Source of the DNA: an uncultured Bacteroidales bacterium
Lineage (GTDB): Bacteria > Bacteroidota > Bacteroidia > Bacteroidales > VadinHA17
DNA: 64,000 nt
Assembly: GCA_963782945.1 (NCBI GenBank)
Contig: CAWALO010000021.1
Span: 11,156-75,155, forward strand
Direction of reading: 5' to 3'
A program made the translations under genes and the position numbers. Below the pieces are notes generated by a model that worked only from the letters and a program-made list of their open reading frames with translations, searched no databases and had not been told where the DNA came from. Of the stretch, positions 36,729-52,338 are shown in pieces; position 1 is the stretch's first letter, and the number at the start of each line of letters is the position of its first letter.

Positions 36729-36733
36729 AAATT

Positions 36734-37927: not shown

Positions 37928-37952
37928 TATTTATAAATAACACAATATTGAC

Positions 37953-38807: not shown

Positions 38808-38863
38808 AGAGATAAATAAAGGGGAATTCCCTAAGTGTAGGTGAATTTACAATTTTCATTTTT

Positions 38864-38989
38864 TTAACCACGGAGTTACTCTGAGTTTTCACGGAGTAAC
38901 ACTGTTGTGTCAGTAGCTAATGAGTTAAAGTTTAACTTAATAGAACTCCGTGAATTACTCCGTGTCACTCCGTGGAACTCCGTGGTTAA
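38864..38989. mobile_element. MITE-like 126-bp element, second copy, with 14-bp perfect TIRs TTAACCACGGAGTT...AACTCCGTGGTTAA
   Basis: It has the same termini and the same internal ACTCCGTG motif family as 34321..34453. It is bounded by TTAA at both ends. Confidence 0.6.
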
Positions 38990-39013
38990 TTTCGAATTAA
39001 CTAATAACAAATA

Positions 39014-41032
39014 CTATTTAAAATTAAACTTACGGATGATCTCCTTTGTTCCCTTAGTACTACTGGCAACCACTTTTACCATTCTCTGGGTAATGGGAAT
39101 CTTTGTTGTATCGATGGCTTCACCTCCGAATTGCTCGAAGAAATATCCCTGCTCACTTACCGGCATCTCCTTGCCGTTGATAACAATTCTGGTACCCGGC
39201 TCTGTCCAGCCAAAAACTTCAACTGAAGAATTTTCAGTTAATGTTGAATTTTCGAGGGGATTGGTCTGGATATAAACCATTGGGCCTGCATCAAACGCTA
39301 TAATCTCATCGAGCAGCTGCTTTTTTGCAGCATATAGAACCGCTGGATCATCTGAGTGTTGTTGAATGCTATAGATGACCTGTGAAGAGATTTCATGACC
39401 CCTTCGCTTTGGATCTATCCACTCGGCCCTTTTTCCGAGAGATTCTTTCAGATTGCAGATTTTCTCCTCGAGCATCCTGAAGCATTCATAATCCTGGATC
39501 CCGTTTCTCATCTGCTCCCACCTCAGCGAGTTGAGTACGCCGTCTTTAGAAGGGTAAACATGCCATCCATCGCCTATATGCATCCCCACATCCTTAAACG
39601 GATCTTCGGTCCATTGATTCCATCCCCAGTGCAGATAACCCGTCGCATCGTACCTGTAATTAAGCCAGTGCAGTATACGGCTGTTCATAACAGGCATATC
39701 GATGGTTTTATTGGGGAAGAGGCTTCCCTGGTAGATGCCAACGGTATAGAACCAAAGCTCGACTCCATTTTTCTGTGCTTCCTTGTAGGATTCATACCAC
39801 GTCCCGAAAGCATCAAGTTTTGGGACAGCCACTTCAATGTCATTCAGAAGGTTAGTAGTCTCTATGGCATCAAGTCTTATCAGATCAGGAGCATATTTAT
39901 GGATGTAGGCCGACATTTCACGCCATGACTGTGAGTTATGCATTGAAGGCTCATCTTTTACATGAAAAAGTGTTTTTGTGAGCCACCCCTTTTCCCTCAG
40001 ATGGCTTTCTGTGGCAGCCAGGAGACCGGGAGCCACATCATTGCCGGCCATCGTTTCTATTTTACCCGTTTCAGTATTTTTTACCCGGAAATCCTGGAGT
40101 TTTATTTCAGAACTGAACCATGCATTATTTCCGAATCGTGCAATTTCACCTGTTTCAAGATAATCCATCATCTTTGTATCCCAGAATACCTGGGCTATCT
40201 GGTCAAATCTTGTGAAATCAAATGATAACCTGCCATCAGTTCCTTTTTGAATTCCTATAGCATCCATCGGCACGTGGAAGACGTTCTGTCGGTGATCAGC
40301 CATGTTACCAGCATATTTACGGAGCATTGAGAACCAGGCATCAGAGTATTCTTCTTTAATTCCATGGAACTTTTCAAAATCACCTGTGCTGTACCACTCT
40401 GTTACCTTAAGGTTCCTGGTTGCCGGAAGGGTCAATGGATATACGGTAACAGACAGAGGAAGCTTCACCTCGCCCTGCTGGCTTTTTACAGTAACATCAC
40501 CAGTATAGGAAGCTGGTACGGCAGTTTCCGGAATACTTACGGTAAGCCATACAGCCTGACTCAATTTTGCTTTAAGGTTGATCTGTTTTTCATTCGCCAG
40601 GTAGTCAGGAAATCTTGCCGGAGCCTTACGAATCAATGCACTGACAGGCTGATTTGGTGTGTTTTCCGAGAGAGGTATACTCCCGACAAAGTTCCATTCA
40701 ACTGCCCCTGCAGGCAAAACGATTCCTGTTTTTTTGTCGGTGAGTGCGCTAACCATAACGTTAACAGCTGTCAGATCCTTTTTTGCCTGCAAAGCACACT
40801 GCCCTGATATCACCTCCCCCCGGATGCCGAAAATCTTCAGTGTATCCTGAAGGGCAGGCATATTGTACCCATCTTCAAAAACCCTCTTCAGGTCGCTGAC
40901 GGAATTCAGTTTGAAAGCCTGGGCAGAAAGGGTGCCGGTTGTCAGCAATAAAAAAAAATATCCGTAAATCAAAGATTTAACAAAGTGTCGGGTCAACAGG
41001 TTTTCTTTTTTCATGCTTTTAAGTCTTTTCAA
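39014..41032 (-). CDS. DUF4091 / GH123-like glycoside hydrolase (candidate beta-N-acetylgalactosaminidase family)
   Basis: 672 aa with a signal peptide. It has an N-terminal beta-sandwich-like region and a central barrel with FHVKDEPSMHN (adjacent Asp-Glu) and YLHWGWNQW. I recall that Pfam PF13320 (DUF4091) is the GH123 catalytic domain. This is a by-eye assignment. Confidence 0.5.
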   Translation of the reverse strand: MKRLKSMKKENLLTRHFVKSLIYGYFFLLLTTGTLSAQAFKLNSVSDLKRVFEDGYNMPALQDTLKIFGIRGEVISGQCALQAKKDLTAVNVMVSALTDKKTGIVLPAGAVEWNFVGSIPLSENTPNQPVSALIRKAPARFPDYLANEKQINLKAKLSQAVWLTVSIPETAVPASYTGDVTVKSQQGEVKLPLSVTVYPLTLPATRNLKVTEWYSTGDFEKFHGIKEEYSDAWFSMLRKYAGNMADHRQNVFHVPMDAIGIQKGTDGRLSFDFTRFDQIAQVFWDTKMMDYLETGEIARFGNNAWFSSEIKLQDFRVKNTETGKIETMAGNDVAPGLLAATESHLREKGWLTKTLFHVKDEPSMHNSQSWREMSAYIHKYAPDLIRLDAIETTNLLNDIEVAVPKLDAFGTWYESYKEAQKNGVELWFYTVGIYQGSLFPNKTIDMPVMNSRILHWLNYRYDATGYLHWGWNQWTEDPFKDVGMHIGDGWHVYPSKDGVLNSLRWEQMRNGIQDYECFRMLEEKICNLKESLGKRAEWIDPKRRGHEISSQVIYSIQQHSDDPAVLYAAKKQLLDEIIAFDAGPMVYIQTNPLENSTLTENSSVEVFGWTEPGTRIVINGKEMPVSEQGYFFEQFGGEAIDTTKIPITQRMVKVVASSTKGTKEIIRKFNFK

Positions 41033-41034
41033 AG

Positions 41035-42519
41035 TTAATATAATCGTATTCTGGCATAGCTAATCGTGTTTTTGACTCCGTCGGGGACACCCAGCATATC
41101 AATCATTTCCGAAGGCTTTGAACCTGCCCGTACTGTGGCCGTAAAAAAACTGGAAAAGGGTTTCTTAAGAGGCAGTACCACTGAGGTCCCGGGAATTCCG
41201 CCCGCAGTAATTTCCATGATTCGGTTTTCAGCGACGGATTTACCCGAGACATCGGTCCCCTCAATAAAATAAACAACGAACAGACGGTTGTCAGGTGTAA
41301 TATGAAAGCGGCCGGGGCCGGGCTTCAGTTCAGATCCACCTTCTTCGGCAATTGCAAGAGTCCGGCGCAGTTCTATCTTTCCATCCCGCAATTTTGCATA
41401 ATTCAGAGCATGAGATTGTTTGGCTTCAGGAAAGAACTTCTCCCGTAACCGTTCATCAAGGGCCCTTTCAGCCCATAAAATATGTACACCTCCATCGGGT
41501 GACACCCAAAGATCGGAGGGAAATATCCATCCGCAGGTCTCTTCACGGCTGGCTATTTCAATCCACGGGTGAAATTTACCAGTGGTAATATCATCACTCC
41601 AGGTGTAAAATAACCTTCTGAAATCGTAATCCCATTCCTTGCCTGTGAGCTCTCTCTTGAATTTGCGCCACTCTTTTTTTGGCTCAATAATATCGCTGAC
41701 ACCGCAAAAATAGACTGCTTTATTCTTTAGCATTACATTCGGATAACAGGTGCGAATCGGCTCCGGCTCTTCATAATCTGAGCCGAAAGGCCACTCCAGC
41801 TTTCCCTGTGCCGACCACTTACCCTTTGAATCGAGGAATGCCCATTCGGCATGGGTATAATCTATATTCTGTAAGAGGATCAATTCCCCTGACTTGCCAT
41901 CTGCTGCGAAGCTGCGGTAAGAATGCTCGGTGAAGGGTGGATTTCCGGACCATCCCGGAAGAAGTTTTTCATGCTTCAATTTTTCACCTGATTTTTTGAA
42001 TTGCAGGATTTCCGGTCTGGCGAAACCATTGTATGTATCAGGCGTTGTAATGGTTGGATTTACTGACAGGAAAAACCTTCCGTCGTGAAAAGCGGTCATC
42101 GGACTGGGTTCACGGGTACGTCCCTCCTTATCTGTCAGTCTTTTCTCCCAGCCTTTTTTCGATCTTTCAAACAGCATCCACCTGCAGTTATTCAGAGGTT
42201 TCCATTCGGGGACTGTTTCAATACCGCTGGCAAACACCTCCTTACCAATTCGTACAATTGAGGTAGAACCGTTGCACCACATTGGTCCTGAACCGTTATC
42301 AGCAGGAATATACTTATAAACAACCTCTTCTGCCTCCACAACCGGTTTAATAACCTTACTGGCTGCAGCTTTGCTGAGAGTCTCAGTCAATGCTGAAAAA
42401 CTCCCGGGTTTTAACGCGAAGCTCCCGCATGCAAGTCCTGCGGAACCAAGGAGACTTTTACGGATAAATTCTCTTCTTTTGGTCATGATAATACTATTTA
42501 ACATCTTCTTTAAGTTCAT
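41035..42519 (-). CDS. Tat-signal exported protein of unknown function (likely start MTKRREF at 42486)
   Basis: MTKRREFIRKSLLGSAGLACGSFA is a twin-arginine signal. The remaining ~460 aa match no family motif I recognise. The Trp/Gly-rich repeats suggest a beta-propeller. Confidence 0.5.
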   Translation of the reverse strand: MNLKKMLNSIIMTKRREFIRKSLLGSAGLACGSFALKPGSFSALTETLSKAAASKVIKPVVEAEEVVYKYIPADNGSGPMWCNGSTSIVRIGKEVFASGIETVPEWKPLNNCRWMLFERSKKGWEKRLTDKEGRTREPSPMTAFHDGRFFLSVNPTITTPDTYNGFARPEILQFKKSGEKLKHEKLLPGWSGNPPFTEHSYRSFAADGKSGELILLQNIDYTHAEWAFLDSKGKWSAQGKLEWPFGSDYEEPEPIRTCYPNVMLKNKAVYFCGVSDIIEPKKEWRKFKRELTGKEWDYDFRRLFYTWSDDITTGKFHPWIEIASREETCGWIFPSDLWVSPDGGVHILWAERALDERLREKFFPEAKQSHALNYAKLRDGKIELRRTLAIAEEGGSELKPGPGRFHITPDNRLFVVYFIEGTDVSGKSVAENRIMEITAGGIPGTSVVLPLKKPFSSFFTATVRAGSKPSEMIDMLGVPDGVKNTISYARIRLY

Positions 42520-43864
42520 TTAGCATCTCCAGAATTGTTTCAACGATCATTTCCCCTCCGCCCGGAGCAAGAATGGAGTTTTCGATCTCATATTCCCCCT
42601 GCCAGTAAGCCCTTTTATTTGGTATATATGTAAGGCTGTTGTCTGATATATTGAAGCTTGCAAGTTCCACAATCATTGTATTTTCGAAGGGAGAGTTATT
42701 TTTTATTGAAAGGCCGTGCTCAACAAAAGGTTCGCCTGGCATTGTTACAATTGCAGTATTGTTTGTCAGTCTTAAGACTTGTACGTCGATAGGGAGAGCG
42801 GTCATACCCTTCTGTTTCAGCATATCAAGTGTGAGTATTCTGTTTTTTCTGACCCTCATTAGGAACTGGGCACGCTCATCGGGGACCTCACTTTTTCCTG
42901 ACAATGAAGCGGTCTCAAGATTCCTGGCCCATTCCAGGTCTTCCTTTGTATAGCTCTGTACCGGAACATTTATCACCCTGTATCTTGACGCCATCGAAGG
43001 TAACTCCTCCTTTGAAGCAGGAAGGGCCTTTTTAACTGAGCTATAAAGTGAATCACCAACCTGTTTGGATTTTGTTTCATGACCACGCTGAGGACCAGGC
43101 TTCGAGAAGTCCCAATGGTTGAGGTTACCGCATGTACCTGTGAGGAAAAGCATACTGAAATCCTTCCCGAAGTCCTCCTTAAGAGATTTTTCCATCCAAT
43201 AGGGATAATCTGCACTTACTGAACCGGGAGCTGCCGCTTTTCCTTCATCACCTACAACATCGAGGTGAAGTGCAAAATTCACTATACACGACACAGGTAT
43301 TGAGCTTGCAGCATCCTGGAACATCACTATACCCACTTCCGGATCAAAAGGTCCGACAGGTCTTACGATGTCGGGATTGAGGAACATAGGATTGAAGACT
43401 ATTTTTCCGTTTTTCATATAGTACCTGCGGTTGTATGACACATTGAACTGGTATCCCAGAGCAGTACTGATCTTCACAGGTTTAAGTGCAGCCTGTCCAT
43501 CAGTAACTGCCTTTATGATAGCAGGAAGAAGATCTTTATGGGGGTGGGACTTATGTGTATGGGTTGCGGCAATAATAATATTCTCAAACGGAATGCCTGT
43601 CTTTTTTGACACCTGTTCCCTGGCAGGAATGGTGAGTTCCCATGACACTGCGCCTATCTCACATTCAACAATTGCATACTGGTTTATTCCCTGCCTGAAC
43701 ACCACAGCACGTACATGCAAGGGGTCAAGCACAATAGCTTTTTCACCGCTTATATCAACTATTCCGGTACCAATTTCCAGGGGGCTGACTTTGGTCAGTG
43801 ACTGCCCTGCTGACATGGTGACGTAGAAAAAGAATGCCAGGATAAAAATCGAAAGGCTCTTCAT
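42494..43864 (-). CDS. neutral/alkaline ceramidase-like (PF04734 N-terminal-domain-like) protein
   Basis: After the signal peptide come GTGIVDISGEKA..LDPLHVRAVVF...IIIAATHTHKSHP. This parallels the ceramidase G..k.DITP...G.h.rL.aRA...THTHsgP layout. Confidence 0.55.
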   Translation of the reverse strand: MKSLSIFILAFFFYVTMSAGQSLTKVSPLEIGTGIVDISGEKAIVLDPLHVRAVVFRQGINQYAIVECEIGAVSWELTIPAREQVSKKTGIPFENIIIAATHTHKSHPHKDLLPAIIKAVTDGQAALKPVKISTALGYQFNVSYNRRYYMKNGKIVFNPMFLNPDIVRPVGPFDPEVGIVMFQDAASSIPVSCIVNFALHLDVVGDEGKAAAPGSVSADYPYWMEKSLKEDFGKDFSMLFLTGTCGNLNHWDFSKPGPQRGHETKSKQVGDSLYSSVKKALPASKEELPSMASRYRVINVPVQSYTKEDLEWARNLETASLSGKSEVPDERAQFLMRVRKNRILTLDMLKQKGMTALPIDVQVLRLTNNTAIVTMPGEPFVEHGLSIKNNSPFENTMIVELASFNISDNSLTYIPNKRAYWQGEYEIENSILAPGGGEMIVETILEMLNELKEDVK

Positions 43865-43929
43865 ATCGAATATTATATTAAGGTTAATTAAATTTCATGT
43901 CTGTCCGGGAAACTGTGTTATGTTTAATA

Positions 43930-45354: not shown

Positions 45355-45380
45355 AACATTTCTTATTTGTTGAACATCAA

Positions 45381-47465
45381 TTAATAATCTTTCTTAAGGT
45401 CAAATGTTTTATAAAAATCAGGCAGAGGTTCCTCAGGTTTCAGTTCGATCCTGGTACTCTCCATACCCATTATCTGGATCTTTTGCCAGAATTGTATCTC
45501 ATGGTCAAAGCGTGCCAGTGCAGCACCAAGCTTAAACCTCGTATACTCATTCATATAGGCCTTTTCATAATCGTATTTCAATTCGCTGAAATAGTCAATT
45601 AGGTCTGTTGCTTTGGAATGGCAGTGGCCAGCCAGGTCATAATAGAGGAAAAAACCCTGGTACTTACCCTTCTCGGCAGGACTTGTCCACCGTGTATGTA
45701 TATATTCTGCAAAAAGAGCCCTCATTGAGGTGTATTCCATCATACGGCTAATAACATTCATCGACTGAACCATTGGATCCTCCGGATATTTCTTTTCAAG
45801 GATTATCAGCGCCTCAAGAGCCTCTTCGGCAGCGAGTCTTGATTTCTGGAGTTCTGTTTTATTATCTCTCACTTTTTTCAGGAAGTATTCCCTGAAGGGA
45901 TCTACCCATGCTTCATTCTGAGAAGCTGAAGGGAATACTTTTGACAGATAATCATTTGATTCCTGGACTTTGTTCAGGGCCCTGATCATTCCATTCCTGT
46001 ATTCTGGATCATCATAGTGCTGCAATGAATATTGCTCAACAAAGCTGTTCTTGTCGGGATTGTCTTTCTGCCAGGCTCCGACAGCAGTATAGGCTATCTG
46101 AAGAAGTGAAGGCCGCGTCAGGGTTATCATGGCATCAGTCCACAGGCATTGAATCATACCAAGTGCCCCGTTCTCCTTCCCAAGTGGCAGGAAAAGATCC
46201 GCATTGTCGTATGTCATCTGGGTACTATACAGGTCGTTCCAGTTATCTATTGACGGCTGAACAAAATACTTCAGCTTGTATTTGTTCATAACCCTGATCC
46301 ATTTCATCATTTCTGAAGTATCCACATCATAATACCAGGCCGGGTAGTAAAAATCTTTCGGGACATTTTTAAACTGGTCCATCAGGCTCTCATTGATAAA
46401 TATATCCATCCAGGCCATTCCTGTCTTTCCGTTTGCCCTCAGAAGCTCAGTAACATAGTTCAGCTGCTGAACAAAATACTCATTGGCGTCAATCACCTTT
46501 CCATTCTTAAGAGGGGCAACACCGTCAGCCTGCATCCTCGACAGGCGCCTGGTAAACCAGGTTTCATCAAAACCTGCATGGAAGAATTTGCTGGGGAAAA
46601 GGTCGCAGATCTCATCAACCATAGTCTTAACCATCTTTCTTGCTTCCGGGTTGGTAGGATCAAACTCGAAACCATAGGGTACGGTGCTGAGAGAGGAGTA
46701 TTTCTCAATACGGAAAATATCGTGGAGATGCCCGTAAAGTGCCTGCATAGGAATGATATCCACATGTCTCTCACGTCCATATTCTACAAGTCTCCTGATT
46801 ACCTCCTTCGGTATTTTGGACTTATAACCAACCAGTGGAAAGGAATCAAGCTCAATGCTGGATTCTGAATAAAAATAAAACTGATTGCTTTTAAACCTGG
46901 CCAGCTCATCAATAATTTCCCTTGCAAACTGTTCATTATAATTGGCTCCCTCGCCCATTGATACAAGTAATCCACGATAAGGCAATGAAGGGTAATCAGA
47001 AATTTCAGCGTGAGGCAAGAATGCATTGTTACCGCTGCCTTCAGCCATCTGCCTCAGAGTCTGGATGGCGTAATAAGCTCCCGCAGAAGAATTGCCATTT
47101 ATTATAATGCCATTGTTGTCTATTTTCATTGTGTAGGCCTCCCTGCATTTTGACCCGGAAGTTTCATTCAAACCTGGTAACGCCGGAAGGCTTCCATGGC
47201 TGAGCTGAACCTGCTTCCCTTTTTTCTCGTTTATCACAGGAACAGTAATCCCGGTGCGGCTTTTAAGAAATCCAGCGAGTTCATTTGCATTGAAAACATC
47301 TTCCGGAGCAGATTTTGCCGGCAGATATATTGTCAGGTCAGATATCTTAAGCTGGCTGTTTCCGTATTTAATCTGCTGAGGCTGCGGCAGGAGCACAGGG
47401 TGGTCCTGAGCCCTGACCATGACGAATGCTAAAGAAAGTAAGAGAAAGATTATTGGTTTTTTCAT
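45381..47465 (-). CDS. GH20-like hexosaminidase (divergent)
   Basis: The N-terminal domain has LLPQPQQIKYGNSQLKI (GH20b-like). The catalytic region has DYPSLPYRGLLVS and FFHAGFDETW, the counterpart of H-x-G-x-D-E. Confidence 0.65.
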   Translation of the reverse strand: MKKPIIFLLLSLAFVMVRAQDHPVLLPQPQQIKYGNSQLKISDLTIYLPAKSAPEDVFNANELAGFLKSRTGITVPVINEKKGKQVQLSHGSLPALPGLNETSGSKCREAYTMKIDNNGIIINGNSSAGAYYAIQTLRQMAEGSGNNAFLPHAEISDYPSLPYRGLLVSMGEGANYNEQFAREIIDELARFKSNQFYFYSESSIELDSFPLVGYKSKIPKEVIRRLVEYGRERHVDIIPMQALYGHLHDIFRIEKYSSLSTVPYGFEFDPTNPEARKMVKTMVDEICDLFPSKFFHAGFDETWFTRRLSRMQADGVAPLKNGKVIDANEYFVQQLNYVTELLRANGKTGMAWMDIFINESLMDQFKNVPKDFYYPAWYYDVDTSEMMKWIRVMNKYKLKYFVQPSIDNWNDLYSTQMTYDNADLFLPLGKENGALGMIQCLWTDAMITLTRPSLLQIAYTAVGAWQKDNPDKNSFVEQYSLQHYDDPEYRNGMIRALNKVQESNDYLSKVFPSASQNEAWVDPFREYFLKKVRDNKTELQKSRLAAEEALEALIILEKKYPEDPMVQSMNVISRMMEYTSMRALFAEYIHTRWTSPAEKGKYQGFFLYYDLAGHCHSKATDLIDYFSELKYDYEKAYMNEYTRFKLGAALARFDHEIQFWQKIQIMGMESTRIELKPEEPLPDFYKTFDLKKDY

Positions 47466-47485
47466 GTATTTTTAAATTTATGATG

Positions 47486-49018
47486 TTACTTATTAAATAT
47501 CCGGACAACAACGCATTGGTGCGGTGCGACACTGCTGCCGAAATAATCCGAGAACCGGCCAAGGTCTTCATGTTTCCATAAATCCCTGACTATCCTTTCT
47601 CCACTTATTCCTAATTCCTTCCAGTCGATCCTGATATTTTTATCCTCAGAATCATTCCTGTTGAGCAATCCTACAGCCCATGAGCCATCAGAAAGGGGTT
47701 TGACAAACACTTCTGCATCGCCGTCATCTCTTATCCTTTTTGCCTGATTTCCCAGAGGGTCCTGATTGACTGCTATTATCTCCCTGTTCAGCAATATCTC
47801 CCTGATATTTTCATTCATATTCCGGATGTCGTTACCTGCAAGAAGGGGAGCAGCCATCAGGCACCAAAGACTCATATGGGATCTGTATTCCTCAATAGTA
47901 CATCCTTTCGCTCCAGCCCTGTTTACCACTGTGGTTTTGCTTGTATCAATGCCAACAACAAGCATATCAGGATCGTTCCAGTGACCGGGACCGGCATAGT
48001 CTGCGAGGGGAGCATTCATATCCAGGATCTGCATTATGCTGTTCGACCCGGCGTTGTACACATCAAGAAGCCATGCATTCCGGATATCAAGTGTCGTCCG
48101 CCAGTAATTTCCGCCGACCGAGGCGGCCCATTCATAAGGTTTGCGTCCACCAGCCTGTCCATGTGGAGGAATACCCCCTTCGCCCCATTCGCAAATGCTG
48201 AACACAATCGATCTGCCTGTTTTTTTCAGAGCCTCTGCCATTCTTTTATACCTTACGATAGCCGTATCCCTCGAAGGAGGAGCATTACAATAGTCGTATT
48301 TAAGAAGATCAATTCCCCAGGAAGCGAAATCCATGGCATCCTGTTCTTCATATCCATAGCTGCCTGCAACACCACCGCAAGTAAGGTTTGCGGCATCGGA
48401 ATAGATTCCCAGTTTAAAACCTTTCGAATGAACATAATCCGCAACAGCCTTTATCCCATGTGGAAATTTCTCCTTATTAATCTGAATTTTACCATTTTGA
48501 TCCCGGTCCGGCAGCTGCCATAAGTCATCAATATTGATATACTGGTATCCAACATCTTTCATTCCCGATGATTCCATGCTGTCGGCAATCTGCCTGATCA
48601 GTGAATCACTTATGTTGACATCAAAGGTATTCCAGCTGTTCCAGCCCATTGGAGGAGTAAGAGCCAGAAGATCTCCGATCTTTATTATCAGCTTACTGCT
48701 TGTTTTTCCATAATTGTTTCTGGCAGTAATTTTTACAGCATAGTCGCCTTTCTCACTTACGCTCCCATTTATTATTCCTGCAGAGGCATCAAGTTCCAGT
48801 CCGGGAGGCAAGCCTTCTGCACTCCATGTAACCGGTCTGGCACCTTCAGTCGGAATATAAAACAGGAATGGTGTTCCCGGATAATTGGCTGTAACAAATG
48901 GAGGATTAATTACAGGTGCTAAATCAGTTTTTCCTTTTACCCTGAAACATCCTCCGGTGAGAAGAGAAATCAAAACAAGAATATTAATTATGCGCATTTG
49001 CCTGAAGATTTTAATCAT
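47486..49018 (-). CDS. GH27 alpha-galactosidase / alpha-N-acetylgalactosaminidase with an N-terminal Ig-like domain
   Basis: PPMGWNSWNTF, YQYINIDDLWQ, KLGIYSDA, LLKYDYC and SICEWG are present. The Ig-like region is PPGLELDASAGIINGSVSEKGDYAVKITA. The track ORF extends to 49075, but MIKIFRQMRIINILVLISLLTGGC at 49018 is the plausible start. Confidence 0.85.
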   Translation of the reverse strand: MIKIFRQMRIINILVLISLLTGGCFRVKGKTDLAPVINPPFVTANYPGTPFLFYIPTEGARPVTWSAEGLPPGLELDASAGIINGSVSEKGDYAVKITARNNYGKTSSKLIIKIGDLLALTPPMGWNSWNTFDVNISDSLIRQIADSMESSGMKDVGYQYINIDDLWQLPDRDQNGKIQINKEKFPHGIKAVADYVHSKGFKLGIYSDAANLTCGGVAGSYGYEEQDAMDFASWGIDLLKYDYCNAPPSRDTAIVRYKRMAEALKKTGRSIVFSICEWGEGGIPPHGQAGGRKPYEWAASVGGNYWRTTLDIRNAWLLDVYNAGSNSIMQILDMNAPLADYAGPGHWNDPDMLVVGIDTSKTTVVNRAGAKGCTIEEYRSHMSLWCLMAAPLLAGNDIRNMNENIREILLNREIIAVNQDPLGNQAKRIRDDGDAEVFVKPLSDGSWAVGLLNRNDSEDKNIRIDWKELGISGERIVRDLWKHEDLGRFSDYFGSSVAPHQCVVVRIFNK

Positions 49019-49023
49019 CGGTT

Positions 49024-50142
49024 TCAGAGTTTTATGAAATATCTGTTTCTGTAAAGATAATAGAGAAGCAGCCATTCCAGTGCAGCTGATATCAAAGCAA
49101 TTACAAGGCTCTGAGCTGCACCGAGAGAATCCCTTATGCCATATATGAAGAAATAAGAGATATTGTCAAAGCTCATTACATGGGTAAGCATGTAGATAGT
49201 AATCGCATTCATGCCAACTACTACAAAGAAAAATGCCCATTTCTGGAATTTAAGTATCTCAATGAGCCAGTAGAAAAGGACCAGGTTAAGCATAGTCAGA
49301 CCACCTGCAAATAGTACGTAAGAACTTGTCCAGAGGTTTTTGATTATCGGGAACCATATAGACCAGATCAATCCGGCTGCAAGCAGGACAACAGCCGAGA
49401 CCAGCATGCCGAGGGCTTTCTTTTCCTTTGTGTTGTCATACTGAAGCCAGTATCCTGCCAGGACTCCAAGCAATGCTGTGGAAACAGTCGGAATCATATA
49501 GGGAGAGAGAAGGATCCTCCACTTAATGCCGATATTGGCAGCTACAAGTTTCGAGATATATTCATTGAAGTTACCTTCCCGGGTGAAGTTGCCTGCTCCG
49601 TAACCAGGAACGGGTATAAACTTCATAATAAGAAAATAAAATATAATTATTCCTCCTGTCCACAAAGCAACACCCCTGACTGAAGTGTTGAGCATTATCA
49701 GGGATGCAAAGAAGTAGCCTACAGCAAGCAGCTGGAGTACACCATAATATCCTATAACCTCCCCGTCATACTTCAGTTCCGGATCGCTGTATCCAAAACA
49801 GATAAGTCCAAGGATAAAAAGTATAATGGTCCTGATAAATATATGTTTATAAAGTTCTCTTTTCCCGGATGCCGATTCAAGTCTTCTTTTGTAAGAGAAT
49901 GGCAGGGTCAGTCCGATTATAAAAAGGAACATAGGGAAAATAAGATCATAATAGCGAAACCCTTCCCAGGGCACATGTTCCATCTGCGTATAAAGCATCC
50001 GGAAAAAGGAGTTATCAGATATTTCAGGCAATGCCCTTAGTATATAGCCACCGGCTACGAGCATAAACATCGTAAAACCGCGTAATGCATCAATTGACAC
50101 CAATCTTTCTGCTTTAATTGATTGTACCTTTTGCTTTTCCAT
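49024..50142 (-). CDS. HGSNAT-like (DUF5009/DUF1624) polytopic membrane acyltransferase
   Basis: RLVSIDALRGFTMFMLV is the N-terminal motif. There are about 10-11 hydrophobic spans. The size and pattern match bacterial heparan-alpha-glucosaminide N-acetyltransferase homologues (NagX-type). Confidence 0.6.
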   Translation of the reverse strand: MEKQKVQSIKAERLVSIDALRGFTMFMLVAGGYILRALPEISDNSFFRMLYTQMEHVPWEGFRYYDLIFPMFLFIIGLTLPFSYKRRLESASGKRELYKHIFIRTIILFILGLICFGYSDPELKYDGEVIGYYGVLQLLAVGYFFASLIMLNTSVRGVALWTGGIIIFYFLIMKFIPVPGYGAGNFTREGNFNEYISKLVAANIGIKWRILLSPYMIPTVSTALLGVLAGYWLQYDNTKEKKALGMLVSAVVLLAAGLIWSIWFPIIKNLWTSSYVLFAGGLTMLNLVLFYWLIEILKFQKWAFFFVVVGMNAITIYMLTHVMSFDNISYFFIYGIRDSLGAAQSLVIALISAALEWLLLYYLYRNRYFIKL

Positions 50143-50205
50143 GATATCAGGTCTTATCAGTATACTGCTTATCCGTCAGTTACTAATTATTAAACGGCTT
50201 ATCTA

Positions 50206-51315
50206 TCAGACTTTCAGGAATGTTTTCTTCCGGTATAGGAAATAGAGGAATAACCACTCCACCACCAGTATACAAATACTCATGAAAACCGGTTTTGCAT
50301 CACCAAGATAATCTATGAATCCATATACAAACTTGTTTACAAAGGCTTCAAAATCAAGAAACCTGACTGCCAGGTATATTGTAATTGAGTTAAGTCCCAC
50401 GACCACAAAAGGGAAAGCCCACTTTTTATAACCCCTGACATCAATAATCCAGTAAAACAAACTGAGTGTCATTGCACTCATACCGATTGCAAGCATTGCA
50501 TATGAGCTTGACCATAATCTGAAGATAATTGGAAAGGAGAAGTTCCAGATAAGGCCTGTTATAATGCTTGCCAATCCGGCTATGCCAAGTCCGAGCACTT
50601 TTTTATCCGGAGTATTTGCAGATCTGAGCCAGTGGCCTGCAAGAACTCCTGCAAGGCAAACAGCTATTGATGATAACTGCTGAAGTATCCCATCCTCATC
50701 ATATGAGCCGTTATATAACTTTCCGGGAAGCAACTTCTGATCGATAAAAGCATGAAGGTTTCCTTCAGGTGTAAGAACACCAGGACCAAAACCAGGTACA
50801 GGTACGAGGATCATAAGCAGCCAGTAAGAAATCAATAATGATCCGGCAATTATTGCCTGAGTTTTGATATCTGTATTCATTACTATAATGGCAGAAAAGA
50901 AATAAGCTATTGCTATTCTCTGAAGAACACCCGTATATCCAAAATCTGAAAAGTCGAAACCAAGAAATCCATTGATTACCAGCCCAATAATGAATAGCAG
51001 CAGACTGCGTTTGACTATATGGATATAAAGCTTGTTCCGGCTATACCCTTTTTGCAATCTTTTGGTTAACGCGAAGGGGAGGCTTGTGCCGACCATAAAG
51101 ATGAAAAGAGGGAAGATCAGATCATAAAGATGGAAACCATGCCATACTGTGTGCTCACATTGACCGGCAAGCCAGGTGAATAAGGCATTGTCTGAAAGTC
51201 TTGGAAGCGTCTGAAATACACCAGCAATTCCAACAAGGAATAACATGTCAAATCCCCTGAGAGCATCCAACGATACTAAGCGTCCTTCCTCCGGTTTATT
51301 ACCGTCTGTACTCAT
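50206..51315 (-). CDS. HGSNAT-like (DUF5009/DUF1624) membrane acyltransferase, tandem paralogue
   Basis: It has RLVSLDALRGFDMLFLV. It is colinear with 49024..50142, for example LWSSSYAMLAIG against LWTSSYVLFAGG, and KKWAFPFVVVGLNSITIY against QKWAFFFVVVGMNAITIY. Confidence 0.6.
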   Translation of the reverse strand: MSTDGNKPEEGRLVSLDALRGFDMLFLVGIAGVFQTLPRLSDNALFTWLAGQCEHTVWHGFHLYDLIFPLFIFMVGTSLPFALTKRLQKGYSRNKLYIHIVKRSLLLFIIGLVINGFLGFDFSDFGYTGVLQRIAIAYFFSAIIVMNTDIKTQAIIAGSLLISYWLLMILVPVPGFGPGVLTPEGNLHAFIDQKLLPGKLYNGSYDEDGILQQLSSIAVCLAGVLAGHWLRSANTPDKKVLGLGIAGLASIITGLIWNFSFPIIFRLWSSSYAMLAIGMSAMTLSLFYWIIDVRGYKKWAFPFVVVGLNSITIYLAVRFLDFEAFVNKFVYGFIDYLGDAKPVFMSICILVVEWLFLYFLYRKKTFLKV

Positions 51316-51406
51316 TGTCGAACGAATCTGTTATATTAAATATTTTAATTAAGCCGACGAAAATAGAAGGATAATGTGTTGATATTTGATGTCAGAATAA
51401 TGGTAA

Positions 51407-52264
51407 CTATTTTGGTATATCCGAGTAACTTATCAGTTGAATATTTTTCCTTTTTATTATATCCCTGGCTTTTTGAGAGCACATCAATAAAGTTACATCA
51501 CTTCGCTCTTTGCCCACCAGTCCGGGGTGAACAGCAAGGATCAGTGTCCCGGGTTTCAGATTTTCTAGAAGGTCGTAGAACATCTGTTTATTTTCATCCG
51601 GCATAGGTACAATATCATAATAGGCAATTGCTCCGTCGGGAAGCCGCTGTAATGGCCAGCTTTCAAAATCATTGTAAACCCATGTATATCCATTCTGGCT
51701 CCCTAAAACATTCTGACCATAGACCACATTCTGCTCAAGGCATATTTTCCTTACAATATCAGCTACAATTTCCGGTGGATTCATATGGTAATCCATGTAA
51801 ACAAAGTGAAGACCACTACTTACTGCCTTGTCTATCTGTGCCCTGATCTCCTTTTCGAAATCGGCAGGCACTGGATTTGCCTTGTCAAGCTCCTCTCTTG
51901 TATCAAAAAAATAACCTCTGGCATCCACAAGCGTCGGAATCTCTTCAGGTGATAAAACCGGTCTGAATCCTGTTCCCATAACAGCAATATGAATTCCTGC
52001 AGCCAGTTCAGGATTTTCTTTGCACATTTTCACACCTTCATAAAAAAAAAGCGATGCAGGCATAATGCTTGCTGATGTGACAATACCCTCCTTATGAGCC
52101 TTAATAATTGCATGATTGATATCATTATGGTAGCCCATATCATCTGCCCGTACGATCAGTTTAATAGGTTGTTGAGCGAGTACAATTGCCTGAAAAAATG
52201 TAAAAAGCACGAAGATCAAAAACATTATATATTTCATTTCCTTCAGGGTTTTGTAAATAATCAA
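51407..52264 (-). CDS. YdjC/ChbG-family carbohydrate deacetylase-like protein with a signal peptide
   Basis: KLIVRADDMGYHNDINHAIIKAHKEGIVTSASIMP matches the YdjC N-terminal metal-site block. A signal-like MKYIMFLIFVLFTFFQAIVLA is present. Confidence 0.6.
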   Translation of the reverse strand: MIIYKTLKEMKYIMFLIFVLFTFFQAIVLAQQPIKLIVRADDMGYHNDINHAIIKAHKEGIVTSASIMPASLFFYEGVKMCKENPELAAGIHIAVMGTGFRPVLSPEEIPTLVDARGYFFDTREELDKANPVPADFEKEIRAQIDKAVSSGLHFVYMDYHMNPPEIVADIVRKICLEQNVVYGQNVLGSQNGYTWVYNDFESWPLQRLPDGAIAYYDIVPMPDENKQMFYDLLENLKPGTLILAVHPGLVGKERSDVTLLMCSQKARDIIKRKNIQLISYSDIPK

Positions 52265-52338
52265 AAATTAAAATTACTAATAACACCTGGAAATTAATGA
52301 TACAAATATCCTTAGTTATAATAGTTTTATATCGGAAG

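What the first reader, a model, noticed from the sequence alone, without database searches (positions are those of the whole stretch)
39014..52264. Nine-gene co-directional island of 'lysosome-like' hydrolases: candidate glycosphingolipid/glycolipid catabolic system
All nine genes are on the minus strand with gaps of 100 bp or less, and none carries a frame lesion. In order they are:
- a DUF4091/GH123-like protein;
- an unknown Tat-exported protein;
- two neutral/alkaline ceramidase-like paralogues;
- a divergent GH20 hexosaminidase;
- a GH27 alpha-galactosidase/alpha-GalNAcase;
- two HGSNAT-like membrane acyltransferases;
- a YdjC deacetylase-like protein.

The founding GH123 enzyme (NgaP of Paenibacillus sp. 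TS12) was found as a glycosphingolipid beta-GalNAcase. In animals, GH20, GH27, GH29 and ceramidase are the enzymes that strip globo- and ganglio-series glycolipids. An intact GH29 (32677..34191) and a now-decayed GH116 of the GBA2 glucosylceramidase family (60614..63126) lie within 15 kb. I know of no described bacterial locus that combines these families with ceramidase homologues. The island contains no SusC/D pair and no regulator.

The substrate call is inference from family membership only. The same families also act on non-lipid glycoconjugates.
Basis: partly seen in the sequence, partly recalled or inferred. Interest (0 to 1): 0.7.

Follow-up and report, generated by a model that had tools for sequence, protein, structure and literature searches.

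The report
Glycan-trimming gene cluster with sugar amidases
Nine intact neighbouring genes in an uncultured Bacteroidales bacterium encode sugar-cutting enzymes plus amide-cutting and re-acetylating enzymes. They most likely digest an amino-sugar-rich glycan, not animal-type glycosphingolipids, and two of the protein families have never been characterised.

Summary
In detail: nine co-directional, intact minus-strand genes lie at 39014..52264. Their order is conserved in related Bacteroidales MAGs.

Most family calls are right, with corrections:
- The GH123 protein is closest to NgaDssm ("Group 3"), a beta-GalNAcase that did not cut the GA1 or Gb5 glycolipid sugars tested.
- The GH27 looks like an alpha-galactosidase.
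- The two "HGSNAT-like" proteins are NagX-type amino-sugar N-acetyltransferases.
- The YdjC deacetylase carries a signal peptide.
- The Tat protein is a beta-propeller from a large, strongly conserved family with no Pfam model. It resembles PL42/PL24 lyases and sialidases.

The two ceramidase-like proteins do belong to the neutral-ceramidase superfamily, and every Zn and catalytic residue is conserved. They lack the C-terminal domain. In about 90 loci from other genomes their relatives sit only in carbohydrate or amino-compound contexts, and none lies among lipid-handling or sphingolipid genes. One example is a SusC-SusD-CER-GH20-GH27 locus. Others have a NagP-like sugar transporter, PIG-L, DegT or GFO/IDH/MocA enzymes, or a conserved RidA-aminotransferase-M19 operon.

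The glycosphingolipid reading is therefore not supported. My preferred reading is periplasmic trimming of a HexNAc/HexN-containing glycan. Amides are removed, NagX re-acetylates the free amines, and GH20 and GH123 can then cut. Confidence is moderate to low, and the substrate is unknown.

The parts
51407..52264 (-). YdjC-family carbohydrate deacetylase with an N-terminal signal peptide, so predicted periplasmic
   Evidence: Pfam YdjC 1.4e-39. Weak best NCBIfam hits are HpnK and chitin disaccharide deacetylase. The N-terminus MKYIMFLIFVLFTFFQAIVLAQQ and the ADDMG motif were read.
50206..51315 (-). NagX-type (HGSNAT-like) transmembrane amino-sugar N-acetyltransferase, copy 1
   Evidence: NF046061 NagX 9.2e-89 (298 bits, below the cut-off of 480) and DUF5009 2.9e-07. 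It is 42% identical to copy 2. The E-H-x-x-W-x-G-F motif with the putative catalytic His is present (role of the His from PMC9007349).
49024..50142 (-). NagX-type transmembrane amino-sugar N-acetyltransferase, copy 2
   Evidence: NF046061 5.2e-69 (233 bits), full-length match. Paralogue of copy 1.
47486..49075 (-). GH27 alpha-galactosidase with an N-terminal He_PIG Ig domain. Probable lipoprotein; likely true start at 49018.
   Evidence: Melibiase_2 2.2e-73, Melibiase_C and He_PIG. Best solved relatives are the putative alpha-galactosidases 4ogz and 4nzj (about 1e-165), then plant alpha-galactosidases. KYDYC, DPDM and C-E-W motifs were read.
45381..47465 (-). Divergent GH20 beta-N-acetylhexosaminidase or biosidase with a ~280 aa C-terminal extension
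   Evidence: GH20b 4e-20 and GH20 5.5e-14. The best solved relative scores only 3.4e-19 (lacto-N-biosidase TrpyGH20), with the H-x-G-x-D-E pair aligned. Full-length orthologues lie next to CER genes in Chitinophagia (L020, L024).
43930..45354 (-). Short neutral-ceramidase-superfamily Zn amidase, 'CER-A' type, with signal peptide
   Evidence: Ceramidase_alk 6.3e-09. The family profile hits 2zws at 8.5e-23 and 4wgk at 3.6e-22. H109, H111, R167, H230, E402, Y432 and Y444 align with PaCD His97, His99, Arg160, His204, Glu411, Tyr448 and Tyr460. There is no C-terminal domain. More than 6,400 homologues were found.
42494..43864 (-). Short ceramidase-superfamily Zn amidase, 'CER-B' type, with signal peptide
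   Evidence: No Pfam or NCBIfam hit. It is 25% identical to CER-A (1e-23). It shares all invariant catalytic columns. 380 homologues were found, and those examined have signal peptides.
41035..42519 (-). Tat-exported beta-propeller of an unnamed, strongly conserved family. Candidate glycan lyase or hydrolase for an anionic sugar; likely start at 42486.
   Evidence: No family hit. The KRREFIRKS twin-arginine motif is present. More than 2,000 homologues share 60-65% identity across Bacteroidota, Planctomycetota and Verrucomicrobiota. The AF2 model has pLDDT 81 and pTM 0.82. Best Foldseek hits are the PL42 Rha-GlcA lyase 7esk (5e-09), sialidases, PL24 ulvan lyases and GH93.
39014..41032 (-). GH123-family beta-N-acetylgalactosaminidase, NgaDssm-like ('Group 3')
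   Evidence: GH123_cat 1.8e-43 and GH123 N-domain 1.2e-14. 8k2j at 6.2e-80 against 1.5e-16 and 2e-16 for BvGH123 and CpNga123. The D-E motif (KDEP) aligns.
37953..38807 (+). AraC-family regulator next to the island, convergent with its last gene. Candidate regulator.
   Evidence: HTH_18, HTH_AraC and Cupin_2. It lies next to GH123 in L001, L005, L006 and L007 at 84-93% identity.
52339..56308 (-). GH28 and GH92 genes directly upstream on the same strand, each split by frameshifts in this window
   Evidence: Pfam hits. Intact 505 aa and 752 aa orthologues sit in the same position in L005 and L007, and GH92 (751 aa) also in L006. GH28 uses three frames with 82-89% identity kept; one break lies near a G5 run.
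30297..37822 (-). Sugar-catabolic operon (amidohydrolase_2, FucI-like isomerase, unknown 284 aa, class-II aldolase, FGGY kinase) with GH29 fucosidase. Conserved neighbour of the island.
   Evidence: Pfam hits. Parts of this operon follow GH123/AraC in L001, L005, L006 and L007, and follow GH123 in L002.
19426..30072 (-). ECF sigma, FecR anti-sigma, SusC-like, SusD-like and a 1134 aa FG-GAP/ASPIC protein. Probable uptake and sensing module.
   Evidence: Pfam hits. FG-GAP/ASPIC homologues flank CER and GH123 clusters in L002, L003, L004, L011 and L175.

Best explanation
The island is the enzymatic core of a Bacteroidales glycan-utilisation system that works in the periplasm on a glycoconjugate rich in N-acylated or free amino sugars (GalNAc, GlcNAc, GalN, GlcN) and carrying alpha-galactose.

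Proposed sequence:
1. Exo-glycosidases trim the chain: GH27 alpha-galactosidase, upstream GH92 and GH28, and nearby GH29.
2. The two short ceramidase-superfamily Zn amidases and the secreted YdjC deacetylase hydrolyse amide substituents on sugar residues. These could be non-acetyl N-acyl groups on amino sugars, or amino-acid amides.
3. The two NagX membrane acetyltransferases use cytoplasmic acetyl-CoA to N-acetylate the exposed amines.
4. That restores the 2-acetamido group which GH20 and the NgaDssm-like GH123 need for substrate-assisted catalysis. It also gives HexNAc that can be taken up.
5. The Tat beta-propeller probably cleaves at an anionic sugar.

Shown here: gene content, intactness, synteny, catalytic motifs, export signals, fold of the propeller, and the genomic contexts of relatives.

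Inferred: every substrate, the order of steps, co-transcription, and regulation by the adjacent AraC protein.
For: - **Families and motifs.** Family assignments and catalytic motifs are intact for all eight assignable enzymes.
- **Export.** Signal, Tat or lipoprotein leaders are present on all seven soluble proteins.
- **NagX function.** Published fitness data from five bacteria link NagX to glucosamine use. The authors propose periplasmic GlcN to GlcNAc conversion (PMC9007349).
- **GH123 mechanism.** GH123-type enzymes use the D-E motif and substrate-assisted catalysis (PMC11087588).
- **Conserved CER, GH20 and GH27 genes.** CER-A, a g5-type GH20 and a g6-type GH27 lie directly after SusC-SusD in Chitinophagaceae locus L024. 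CER-B, GH20 and CER-A lie together in L020.
- **Carbohydrate neighbours of CER genes elsewhere.** These include a NagP-like MFS transporter (316 bits), PIG-L deacetylase, DegT aminotransferase, GFO/IDH/MocA oxidoreductases, ribokinase, 3-keto-disaccharide hydrolase, CBM9, GH31 and sulfatases.
- **Link between CER and the propeller.** A CER-like gene is the most frequent recognisable neighbour of the beta-propeller family, including in Planctomycetota: 10 of the 68 loci where the propeller ORF was recovered.
- **Conserved flanks.** The AraC gene and the sugar operon are conserved flanks of the island.
Against: - No substrate has been tested, and no member of either short CER clade or of the propeller family is characterised.
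- A secreted deacetylase next to an acetyltransferase looks futile unless they act on different residues.
- The NagX hits are below NCBI's equivalog cut-off, so their acceptor may differ.
- GH20 and GH123 would also act on ordinary HexNAc glycans without any N-acyl editing.
- The most conserved context of CER-A relatives is rich in amino-acid-type enzymes (RidA, aminotransferase, 3HCDH x2, M19, D-Ser-dehydratase-like, sometimes Asp/Glu racemase and D-aminoacylase-like). The leaving group may therefore be an amino acid or peptide rather than a fatty or short acyl chain.
- Co-transcription is not shown. The sigma-70 and terminator scan was uninformative.
- I could not model CER-A or CER-B, so pocket shape is unknown.
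Confidence: 0.45

Rival explanations
1. Glycolipid catabolism. The glycosidases strip the head group of a glycosphingolipid, and the two ceramidase homologues then split the ceramide. The version that fits best is not an animal globo- or ganglio-series lipid. It is a GlcN-GlcA-type lipid such as sphingomonad GSL-3/GSL-4 or plant and fungal GIPCs. Free GlcN in those lipids would explain NagX. Alpha-Gal and alpha-Man would explain GH27 and GH92. The 4-linked uronic acid would explain a PL42-like propeller. The structures of these lipids are from my own knowledge.
For: The proteins belong to the neutral-ceramidase superfamily with a complete Zn and catalytic set. The propeller's best structural matches include an exo-lyase acting on X-alpha-1,4-GlcA. 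GH92, GH28 and GH27 are conserved neighbours. The related MAGs carry Danish environmental and wastewater sample labels (MFD, Mari), habitats where such lipids could be available (the habitat reading is my interpretation of the sample names).
Against: - The nearest characterised GH123-type enzyme did not cut GA1 or Gb5 glycolipid sugars.
- The CER proteins lack the ceramidase C-terminal domain and do not reach the neutral-ceramidase equivalog model.
- CER-A relatives at 40-46% identity are cytoplasmic and sit with a sugar-type MFS transporter. Others follow SusC/SusD.
- No endoglycoceramidase, sphingomyelinase, fatty-acid uptake or beta-oxidation genes appear in the window or in about 90 surveyed loci.
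- GH20, GH123 and YdjC are not needed for sphingomonad GSLs.
Confidence: 0.12
2. Glyco-amino-acid or glycopeptide degradation. The CER amidases cut amide bonds between sugars and amino acids or peptides, for example amino-acid amides of uronic acids or N-aminoacyl amino sugars in bacterial capsules, O-antigens or cell walls. The glycosidases then take the glycan apart. In other lineages the released amino acids, often D-forms, are consumed by the adjacent M19, racemase, aminotransferase, RidA and D-Ser-dehydratase-like enzymes.
For: A conserved operon RidA-3HCDH-AT3-3HCDH-M19-CER-(D-Ser dehydratase/BhcC-like) occurs in about 30 of 80 loci. L176 adds an Asp/Glu racemase and an Amidohydro_3 (D-aminoacylase-like) protein between the two CER types. 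Uronate-related neighbours recur: GH28, a CE15-like esterase and a lyase-like propeller.
Against: None of those amino-acid enzymes is in this window. NagX and YdjC point to amino-sugar N-acyl chemistry. The transporter in those operons is of the sugar (NagP/FucP/GluP) type, not a peptide transporter. The idea is untested.
Confidence: 0.2
3. There is no single system. The nine genes are independent periplasmic CAZyme and accessory genes packed together in a CAZyme-dense part of a Bacteroidales genome, acting on several unrelated glycans.
For: The whole 64 kb window is dense in glycoside hydrolases of many families: GH20 x2, GH27, GH28, GH29 x2, GH92, GH116, GH123, DUF2961 and GHL6. Gene content between CER-A and GH123 varies among relatives, and NagX/YdjC are absent from L003-L006.
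Against: Recurrent partial synteny across orders and phyla is hard to get by chance. It includes CER with GH20 and GH27, CER-A with CER-B, CER with the propeller, and GH123 with AraC and the sugar operon. Gaps of 91 nt or less on one strand suggest co-transcription.
Confidence: 0.15

Closest known systems
Neutral ceramidase (P. aeruginosa PaCD, PDB 2zws; human ASAH2, PDB 4wgk)
   Same: Homologous catalytic domain (profile E 8.5e-23 and 3.6e-22). The Zn ligands and catalytic His, Arg and Tyr residues align one-to-one.
   Different: About 455-475 aa instead of 646-688. The C-terminal domain is absent. Pfam hit is weak (g4) or absent (g3), and there is no hit to NCBI's ceramidase_neut equivalog. 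Genomic contexts are carbohydrate or amino-compound, not lipid. Substrate unknown.
NgaDssm, 'Group 3' beta-N-acetylgalactosaminidase of the expanded GH123 family (PDB 8k2j; Sumida et al. 2024, PMC11087588)
   Same: Best solved relative of 39014..41032 (6.2e-80 over residues 41-525), with the D-E motif conserved.
   Different: The window protein has an extra ~145 aa C-terminal region. NgaDssm's own natural substrate is unknown. It did not cut GA1 or Gb5 sugars and prefers GalNAc4S-4MU.
NagX / HGSNAT transmembrane acetyl-CoA:amino-sugar N-acetyltransferases (Price et al. 2022, PMC9007349)
   Same: Full-length match to the NagX model, with the conserved His motif. The proposed logic matches the lysosomal one: acetylate a free amine so that the next enzyme or transporter can act.
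   Different: Scores are below the equivalog cut-off. There are two diverged copies (42% identity). No NagP, NagK or NagA genes are next to them. They are paired with a secreted YdjC deacetylase and with amidases.
Bacteroidota polysaccharide utilisation loci (SusC/SusD-centred)
   Same: Periplasmic and lipoprotein glycosidases on one strand, an adjacent regulator, and a SusC/SusD/ECF-sigma set nearby. An orthologous CER-GH20-GH27 set lies directly behind SusC-SusD in L024.
   Different: No SusC/SusD lies inside the island. It carries accessory amidases, acetyltransferases and a deacetylase. My literature searches found no described PUL that combines these.
Beta-propeller polysaccharide lyases PL42 (FoRham1, 7esk) and PL24 (LOR107, Uly1), and sialidases
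   Same: Best structural matches of the Tat protein (Foldseek E 5e-09 to 1e-06). Many invariant Arg residues, as expected for an anionic ligand.
   Different: TM-scores are only 0.4-0.55 and sequence identity 10-13%. There is no sequence-level family hit. Catalytic residues were not mapped.

Membership tests
Neutral/alkaline ceramidase (PF04734; EC 3.5.1.23) | Sequence homology to the N-terminal catalytic domain | tested here: met
   g4: Pfam 35.5 bits (gathering score 32.1), E 6.3e-09. The family profile hits 2zws at 8.5e-23 and 4wgk at 3.6e-22. g3 is linked only through paralogy to g4 (1e-23) and shared invariant columns.
Neutral/alkaline ceramidase (PF04734; EC 3.5.1.23) | Zn ligands His97, His204, Glu411 and Tyr448, and catalytic His99, Arg160 and Tyr460 (PaCD numbering, from my knowledge of the 2zws structure) | tested here: met
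   Invariant H109, H230, E402, Y432, H111, R167 and Y444 of g4 fall on these positions in the HMMER alignment.
Neutral/alkaline ceramidase (PF04734; EC 3.5.1.23) | C-terminal domain following the catalytic domain (total length ~650-700 aa) | tested here: not met
   g4 ends 29 residues after the Y444-E445 motif, and g3 is 456 aa. The solved ceramidases are 646 and 688 aa, and the match stops at chain residue ~461.
Neutral/alkaline ceramidase (PF04734; EC 3.5.1.23) | Match to NCBI equivalog model NF041649 ceramidase_neut (cut-off 1200 bits) | tested here: not met
   No hit at E<=0.01 for g3 or g4. A 43%-identical relative scores 26.6 bits.
Neutral/alkaline ceramidase (PF04734; EC 3.5.1.23) | Hydrophobic ceramide-binding pocket and ceramide hydrolysis | not testable with these tools
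GH123 (beta-N-acetylgalactosaminidase, DUF4091) | GH123 catalytic and N-terminal domains with the consecutive Asp-Glu catalytic motif | tested here: met
   PF13320 at 149.6 bits and PF22680 at 54.8 bits. KDEP aligns with ADEP of 8k2j. The motif's role is from PMC11087588.
GH123 (beta-N-acetylgalactosaminidase, DUF4091) | Activity on glycosphingolipid glycans, as for NgaP | not tested
   Indirect only. The closest characterised enzyme, NgaDssm, did not hydrolyse GA1 or Gb5 oligosaccharides.
GH20 | GH20b domain plus (beta/alpha)8 catalytic domain with the H-x-G-x-D-E pair | tested here: met
   PF02838 at 73.2 bits. PF00728 at 52.7 bits, covering profile positions 76-272 of 348. HAGFDE aligns with HMGADE of 9fyn. 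Divergent: the best solved relative scores 3.4e-19.
GH27 | Melibiase_2 catalytic domain, C-terminal beta-sandwich, and the nucleophile and acid/base Asp motifs | tested here: met
   247.5 and 73.5 bits. KYDYC and DPDM are present. 4ogz at 3e-165. The Glu in C-E-W suggests alpha-Gal rather than alpha-GalNAc specificity (rule recalled from human GLA versus NAGA, not tested).
NagX / HGSNAT acetyltransferase | Full-length multi-pass membrane domain matching NF046061 or PF07786, with the catalytic His | tested here: inconclusive
   Full-length matches, but at 233 and 298 bits against a cut-off of 480. Only g8 hits DUF5009. The His was seen by eye in the E-H-x-x-W motif and was not aligned to HGSNAT here.
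YdjC carbohydrate deacetylase | YdjC domain with the N-terminal D-D-x-G metal and catalytic motif | tested here: met
   PF04794 at 137 bits, full length. ADDMG is present. Unusual feature: a signal peptide.
Polysaccharide utilisation locus (PUL) | Adjacent SusC/SusD pair within the locus | tested here: not met
   There is none in 39014..52264. The nearest pair is at 22997..27999. An orthologous gene set in L024 does follow SusC-SusD.

The most novel reading that the evidence does not exclude
The short ceramidase-superfamily amidases (two clades, more than 6,000 sequences), the unnamed Tat beta-propeller family (more than 2,000 sequences) and NagX together define an undescribed 'de-N-acylate, then re-N-acetylate' route. 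It would be a bacterial counterpart of the lysosomal sulfamidase, HGSNAT and NAGLU sequence. It would let Bacteroidota, Planctomycetota and Verrucomicrobiota digest glycans, or GlcN-GlcA-core glycolipids such as sphingomonad GSLs and plant or fungal GIPCs. The unusual N-acyl or free amino sugars in these substrates otherwise block substrate-assisted hexosaminidases.
Probability: 0.2. Interest if true: 0.75.

Novelty: new variant of a known kind. Interest (0 to 1): 0.45.

Why it matters
Two large protein families with no characterised member sit at the centre of a conserved glycan-degrading gene set in abundant environmental bacteria. They are the short ceramidase-like amidases and a beta-propeller that keeps about 60% identity across phyla.

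If the amidases act on sugars rather than ceramide, thousands of 'neutral ceramidase' annotations in Bacteroidota, Planctomycetota and Verrucomicrobiota are misleading. A new accessory step in glycan breakdown, N-acyl editing coupled to NagX, would also become testable.

Cultured carriers exist, for example Niabella aurantiaca DSM 17617, Parapedobacter defluvii, Rhabdobacter roseus and a Mucilaginibacter strain. If the glycolipid reading were right instead, this would be the first bacterial locus for complete glycosphingolipid breakdown.

Tried and rejected
1. **Structure of CER-A.** Single-sequence AlphaFold of CER-A gave pLDDT 31, which is unusable. This used one of two modelling jobs, so no pocket or Zn-site model could be made.
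2. **Direct PDB search.** A phmmer search with CER-A alone found nothing. Only the family profile reached the ceramidases.
3. **Promoter and terminator scan.** The sigma-70 and terminator scan of 37800..56700 was close to shuffled expectation: 57 against 44±6.5 promoter-like sites and 17 against 16 terminator-like sites. It is uninformative for Bacteroidota.
4. **Literature.** Five searches found no description of such a locus or of a characterised short ceramidase-like protein. The terms combined ceramidase with PUL/Bacteroid-, GH109/GH20, RidA/dipeptidase, bacterial ceramidase/glycosphingolipid, and SusC.
5. **GH109 idea.** I considered that the 430 aa Tat GFO/IDH/MocA protein next to CER and the propeller in Rikenellaceae is a GH109 alpha-GalNAcase. 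I rejected this. Its best solved relatives are the 8tdf and 8tdh dehydrogenases and DgpA.
6. **GH27 in Chitinophagia operons.** I considered that the GH27-like genes in those CER operons are orthologues of g6. Most are not: identity is 24-28% and the KYD and DPD motifs are missing. L024's is an orthologue (45%).
7. **Context of the propeller in Planctomycetota and Verrucomicrobiota.** It is largely unconserved. One apparent neighbour cluster was made of antisense shadow ORFs.
8. **GH123 association.** The link between CER and GH123 does not extend beyond the Bacteroidales and Rikenellaceae relatives: 4 of 80 loci.

Full report
**Observation**

The window holds nine minus-strand ORFs exactly at the coordinates given. 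Their lengths are 672, 494, 456, 474, 694, 529, 372, 369 and 285 aa.
- Gaps are at most 91 nt.
- Two small overlaps are artefacts of taking the longest ORF. Homologues of the Tat protein start at its Met12 (483 against 494 aa). The GH27 has a lipoprotein leader starting at Met20.
- Each product matches full-length homologues in other assemblies, so none is visibly damaged.

Seven related loci from uncultured Bacteroidales and Rikenellaceae genomes carry the cluster or parts of it.
- L001 and L007 have the same gene order at 85-94% protein identity. L007 lacks a detectable GH27, and L001 lacks a detectable CER-B.
- L002 has a rearranged version with one NagX.
- CER-A and the GH123 gene co-occur in all seven.

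The arrangement is therefore real and conserved, not a chance run of ORFs.

**Family assignments**

- GH123 catalytic domain, 1.8e-43.
- GH20b and GH20, 4e-20 and 5.5e-14.
- GH27 Melibiase_2, 2.2e-73, preceded by a He_PIG Ig domain.
- YdjC, 1.4e-39.
- Ceramidase_alk, 6.3e-09, for 43930..45354 only.
- The two membrane proteins match NCBI's NagX model over their full length. NagX is the transmembrane glucosamine N-acetyltransferase and the bacterial short form of HGSNAT. The scores (233 and 298 bits) are below the equivalog cut-off. The two copies are 42% identical to each other.
- 42494..43864 hits nothing, but it is a clear paralogue of 43930..45354 (25% identity, 1e-23).

Catalytic motifs are present throughout:
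- KDEP in GH123, aligned to the D-E motif of 8k2j;
- HAGFDE in GH20;
- KYDYC and DPDM in GH27;
- ADDMG in YdjC.

All seven soluble proteins carry export signals, including the YdjC deacetylase. From my own knowledge, YdjC enzymes such as ChbG are usually cytoplasmic, so this is unusual.

**The ceramidase-like proteins**

I built a profile from 21 family members, including both paralogues. It hits only the two solved neutral ceramidases: P. aeruginosa 2zws at 8.5e-23 and human 4wgk at 3.6e-22. Counting along the printed alignment gives these matches between invariant family residues (g4 numbering) and PaCD:
- H109, H230, E402 and Y432 fall on His97, His204, Glu411 and Tyr448, the Zn ligands.
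- H111, R167 and Y444 fall on His99, Arg160 and Tyr460, the catalytic residues.

The residue roles come from my knowledge of the PaCD structure.

Superfamily membership and an intact metallo-amidase site are therefore established.

The proteins nonetheless stop about 30 residues after the last catalytic Tyr. They lack the ~185-residue C-terminal domain of real ceramidases. They also miss NCBI's neutral-ceramidase model entirely. They are catalytic-domain-only relatives.

The CER-A type has more than 6,400 detectable homologues. The CER-B type has 380.

**What the relatives of CER-A and CER-B sit next to**

This is the evidence that moves the interpretation. I fetched 80 genomic loci with a family profile, clustered their neighbours and annotated the recurrent clusters.

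1. *A conserved cytoplasmic operon.* In about 30 loci from Chitinophagaceae, Cytophagales and Sphingobacteriaceae, a CER-A-type gene (38-46% identical) closes this operon:

   RidA – 3HCDH-like – (MFS) – class-III aminotransferase – 3HCDH-like – peptidase M19 – CER

   - A D-serine-dehydratase/BhcC-like gene, an aldo-keto reductase or SusC/SusD often follows.
   - The CER proteins in this operon have no signal peptide.
   - The MFS transporter's best match is the GlcNAc transporter NagP (316 bits, GluP/FucP family).
   - Ribokinase, a sugar-transport protein and GFO/IDH/MocA genes occur alongside.
2. *L024 (Chitinophagaceae).* The order is CBM9 – SusC – SusD – CER-A (43%) – g5-type GH20 (32% over the full length) – g6-type GH27 (45%). 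This is a textbook PUL containing three of the island's genes.
3. *L020.* The order is CER-B (55%) – GH20 (33%) – CER-A (55%), flanked by GH37-like and GH31 genes, RidA and a D-Ser-dehydratase-like gene.
4. *L175 and L176.* These carry both CER types together with the M19/aminotransferase operon. The CER-B type is secreted and the CER-A type is cytoplasmic. L175 also has a GH27-family gene and a 1134 aa FG-GAP/ASPIC protein 39% identical to the one at 19426..22830 in this window.
5. *L177.* The order is DegT aminotransferase – GFO/IDH/MocA – PIG-L deacetylase – unknown – CER-B – CBM9.
6. *Clostridiaceae and Victivallaceae.* A cytoplasmic CER follows a GFO/IDH/MocA oxidoreductase. An ABC sugar permease or a DegT aminotransferase lies nearby.
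7. *Other contexts.* These include 3-keto-disaccharide hydrolase with a DUF7133 cytochrome c protein, and sulfatases.

Across roughly 90 loci I saw no fatty-acid uptake or beta-oxidation set, no sphingomyelinase and no endoglycoceramidase. The 3HCDH-like genes are the only nominally lipid-related family. Their best NCBIfam match is a pyridoxine-pathway dehydrogenase.

These contexts indicate amidases that serve carbohydrate or amino-compound catabolism, frequently on substrates small and soluble enough for a sugar-type transporter. They do not prove what the two periplasmic copies in this window do.

**The other components**

*GH123.* The nearest solved relative is 8k2j (6.2e-80). Canonical GH123 enzymes are far more distant: BvGH123 at 1.5e-16 and CpNga123 at 2e-16. 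8k2j is NgaDssm, the 'Group 3' enzyme of Sumida et al. 2024. In that paper NgaDssm:
- cleaved GalNAc-beta-pNP and released Gal-beta-1,3-GalNAc from its pNP glycoside;
- was twice as active on GalNAc4S-4MU;
- did not act on GA1 or Gb5 glycolipid oligosaccharides.

Its natural substrate was not found. The argument 'GH123, therefore glycosphingolipid' does not transfer to this protein.

*GH27.* It is about 60% identical to two Bacteroides-type 'putative alpha-galactosidases' of unknown function, 4ogz and 4nzj. It carries Glu in the C-E-W motif. By the human GLA/NAGA rule, which I recall and did not test, this favours alpha-Gal over alpha-GalNAc.

*GH20.* It is remote from every solved GH20. The best is 3.4e-19, a lacto-N-biosidase.

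*NagX.* Published fitness data from five bacteria link NagX to glucosamine use. The authors propose that it acetylates periplasmic GlcN with cytoplasmic acetyl-CoA (PMC9007349).

**The Tat protein**

It belongs to a family of more than 2,000 sequences with no Pfam model. The family keeps 60-65% identity between Bacteroidota, Planctomycetota and Verrucomicrobiota. About 120 columns are invariant, many of them Arg.

With a 30-sequence alignment AlphaFold gives a confident beta-propeller, pLDDT 81 and pTM 0.82. Foldseek's best PDB matches are:
- the PL42 L-Rha-alpha-1,4-GlcA lyase 7esk (5e-09);
- Dfer_1899, a protein of unknown function;
- several sialidases;
- PL24 ulvan lyases;
- GH93.

TM-scores are about 0.4-0.55. 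This suggests a carbohydrate-active enzyme for an anionic sugar, but nothing firmer.

Its neighbourhood is poorly conserved in the PVC phyla. The most frequent recognisable neighbour is nevertheless a CER-like gene, in 10 of the 68 loci where the propeller ORF was recovered, several of them Planctomycetota. A 430 aa Tat-signal GFO/IDH/MocA oxidoreductase is next, in 6 loci. That oxidoreductase resembles the 8tdf and 8tdh dehydrogenases and DgpA, not GH109.

**Surroundings in the window**

- An AraC regulator lies immediately beyond the last gene on the opposite strand. It holds that position in four relatives.
- Beyond it is an operon of amidohydrolase_2, a FucI-like isomerase, an unknown protein, a class-II aldolase, an FGGY kinase and GH29. 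The operon is also conserved next to the cluster.
- Then come ECF sigma, FecR, SusC, SusD and FG-GAP/ASPIC.
- Upstream on the same strand are GH28 and GH92 genes. They are split here but intact in the same position in L005 and L007, and GH92 also in L006.

GH28 has two frame changes within 200 nt, one near a G5 run. All pieces keep 82-89% identity to the intact L007 gene. The relatives come from MAG projects and have other genes split: GH123 in three pieces in L001, and GH20 and CER-A in L007. These lesions, including the 'decayed' GH116, may therefore be assembly indel errors or very recent events. I cannot tell which.

**Most likely mechanism**

I read the island as the periplasmic enzyme core of a glycan-utilisation system aimed at a glycoconjugate containing N-acylated or free amino sugars.
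1. Exo-glycosidases remove alpha-Gal, and with the neighbouring genes also Man, GalA-type residues and Fuc.
2. The two Zn amidases and the secreted YdjC remove amide-linked substituents.
3. The two NagX proteins re-acetylate the exposed amines.
4. The substrate-assisted GH20 and GH123 enzymes then cleave the HexNAc residues.
5. The propeller deals with an acidic residue.

Only this reading gives a role to all nine genes. The enzymes are related to HGSNAT and the logic is the same as in lysosomal heparan-sulfate breakdown.

It remains an inference from family chemistry and gene neighbourhoods, and I put it at about 0.45. A close variant, in which the amide leaving group is an amino acid or peptide, is suggested by the M19, racemase, RidA and aminotransferase neighbours elsewhere (0.2). 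The glycolipid reading survives mainly in a modified form, GlcN-GlcA-core lipids of sphingomonads, plants or fungi. That form would explain NagX, GH27, GH92 and a lyase-like propeller, but it is contradicted by the contexts above (0.12). A null model of unrelated co-located CAZyme genes gets 0.15.

**Novelty and score**

The parts are known families arranged in a known way, as a Bacteroidota glycan locus. The accessory chemistry is what stands out: ceramidase-fold amidases, doubled NagX, a secreted YdjC and an unnamed conserved propeller. I found this combination nowhere in the literature I could search, and two of the families are wholly uncharacterised.

I rate it a new variant of a known kind, interest 0.45. 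It is a useful lead for CAZyme and PUL biochemists and a caution about 'neutral ceramidase' annotations. It is not evidence for a bacterial glycosphingolipid catabolic system.

Noticed in passing
L021, L023, L025-L027, L029, L034-L036, L042, L043, L046, L048, L053, L057, L059, L060, L066, L072, L076 (and others); e.g. L025:1967-9483: A strongly conserved, apparently cytoplasmic operon occurs in many Chitinophagia, Cytophagia and Sphingobacteriia genomes. Its order is RidA, 3HCDH-like, (NagP-like MFS), GSA-aminomutase-like aminotransferase, 3HCDH-like, peptidase M19, ceramidase-like, then a D-Ser-dehydratase/BhcC-like gene. It is often next to SusC/SusD and an AraC gene. I found no description of it. 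It looks like an uncharacterised catabolic pathway for an N-acylated amino compound.
   Followed up: partly
window 41035..42519 and loci L095-L174: The Tat beta-propeller family has no Pfam model. It keeps about 60% identity between Bacteroidota, Planctomycetota and Verrucomicrobiota, with ~120 invariant columns. That is unusually strong conservation for a secreted protein of unknown function.
   Followed up: partly
window 52339..53879, 54072..56308, 60614..62956, 13253..14666, 2983..3747, 4062..5174, 6179..8192: Many genes in the window are split or truncated: GH28, GH92, GH116, an MFS sugar transporter, a GH29-like fragment, GHL6 fragments, and a mannitol dehydrogenase overlapping PfkB. GH28 and GH92 are intact in relatives, while those relatives have other genes split. 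This pattern fits indel errors of long-read MAG assemblies at least as well as gene decay.
   Followed up: partly
window 51407..52264: The YdjC-family deacetylase has a clear signal peptide, whereas characterised YdjC/ChbG enzymes are cytoplasmic (my knowledge). It always travels with NagX in the relatives that have either (L001, L002, L007).
   Followed up: no
window 12248..13252 and 14704..15888; L002:18509-19690; L008:4020-5147: URO-D-like (uroporphyrinogen-decarboxylase-fold) genes recur. There are two in the window, next to an ADP-ribosylglycohydrolase and an FGE-sulfatase-domain protein. One follows GH123 in L002. One follows the ceramidase-like gene in a Clostridiaceae locus. Their role in these sugar contexts is unclear.
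   Followed up: no
window 30297..37822: The sugar operon beside the island pairs a FucI-like isomerase (only weak Pfam hits) and an FGGY kinase with a class-II FBA/tagatose-bisphosphate-type aldolase, not a FucA-type aldolase. It also has an amidohydrolase_2 and a 284 aa protein with no family. It may encode a non-standard deoxy-sugar or ketose pathway.
   Followed up: no
window 5477..8192 and L177:13615-16012: A PfkB kinase plus mannitol-dehydrogenase pair occurs in the window, preceded there by a D-lyxose isomerase. The same pair follows a CER-B cluster in the marine locus L177. This may be another recurrent companion of the system.
   Followed up: no
L003:5461-6717, L004:4184-5437, L011:3705-4961; L002:11434-13434: Relatives carry further proteins with no Pfam family inside the cluster. 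One is a ~418 aa protein between GH123 paralogues in Rikenellaceae loci. Another is a ~666 aa protein between CER-A and CER-B in L002. Neither is present in the window.
   Followed up: no
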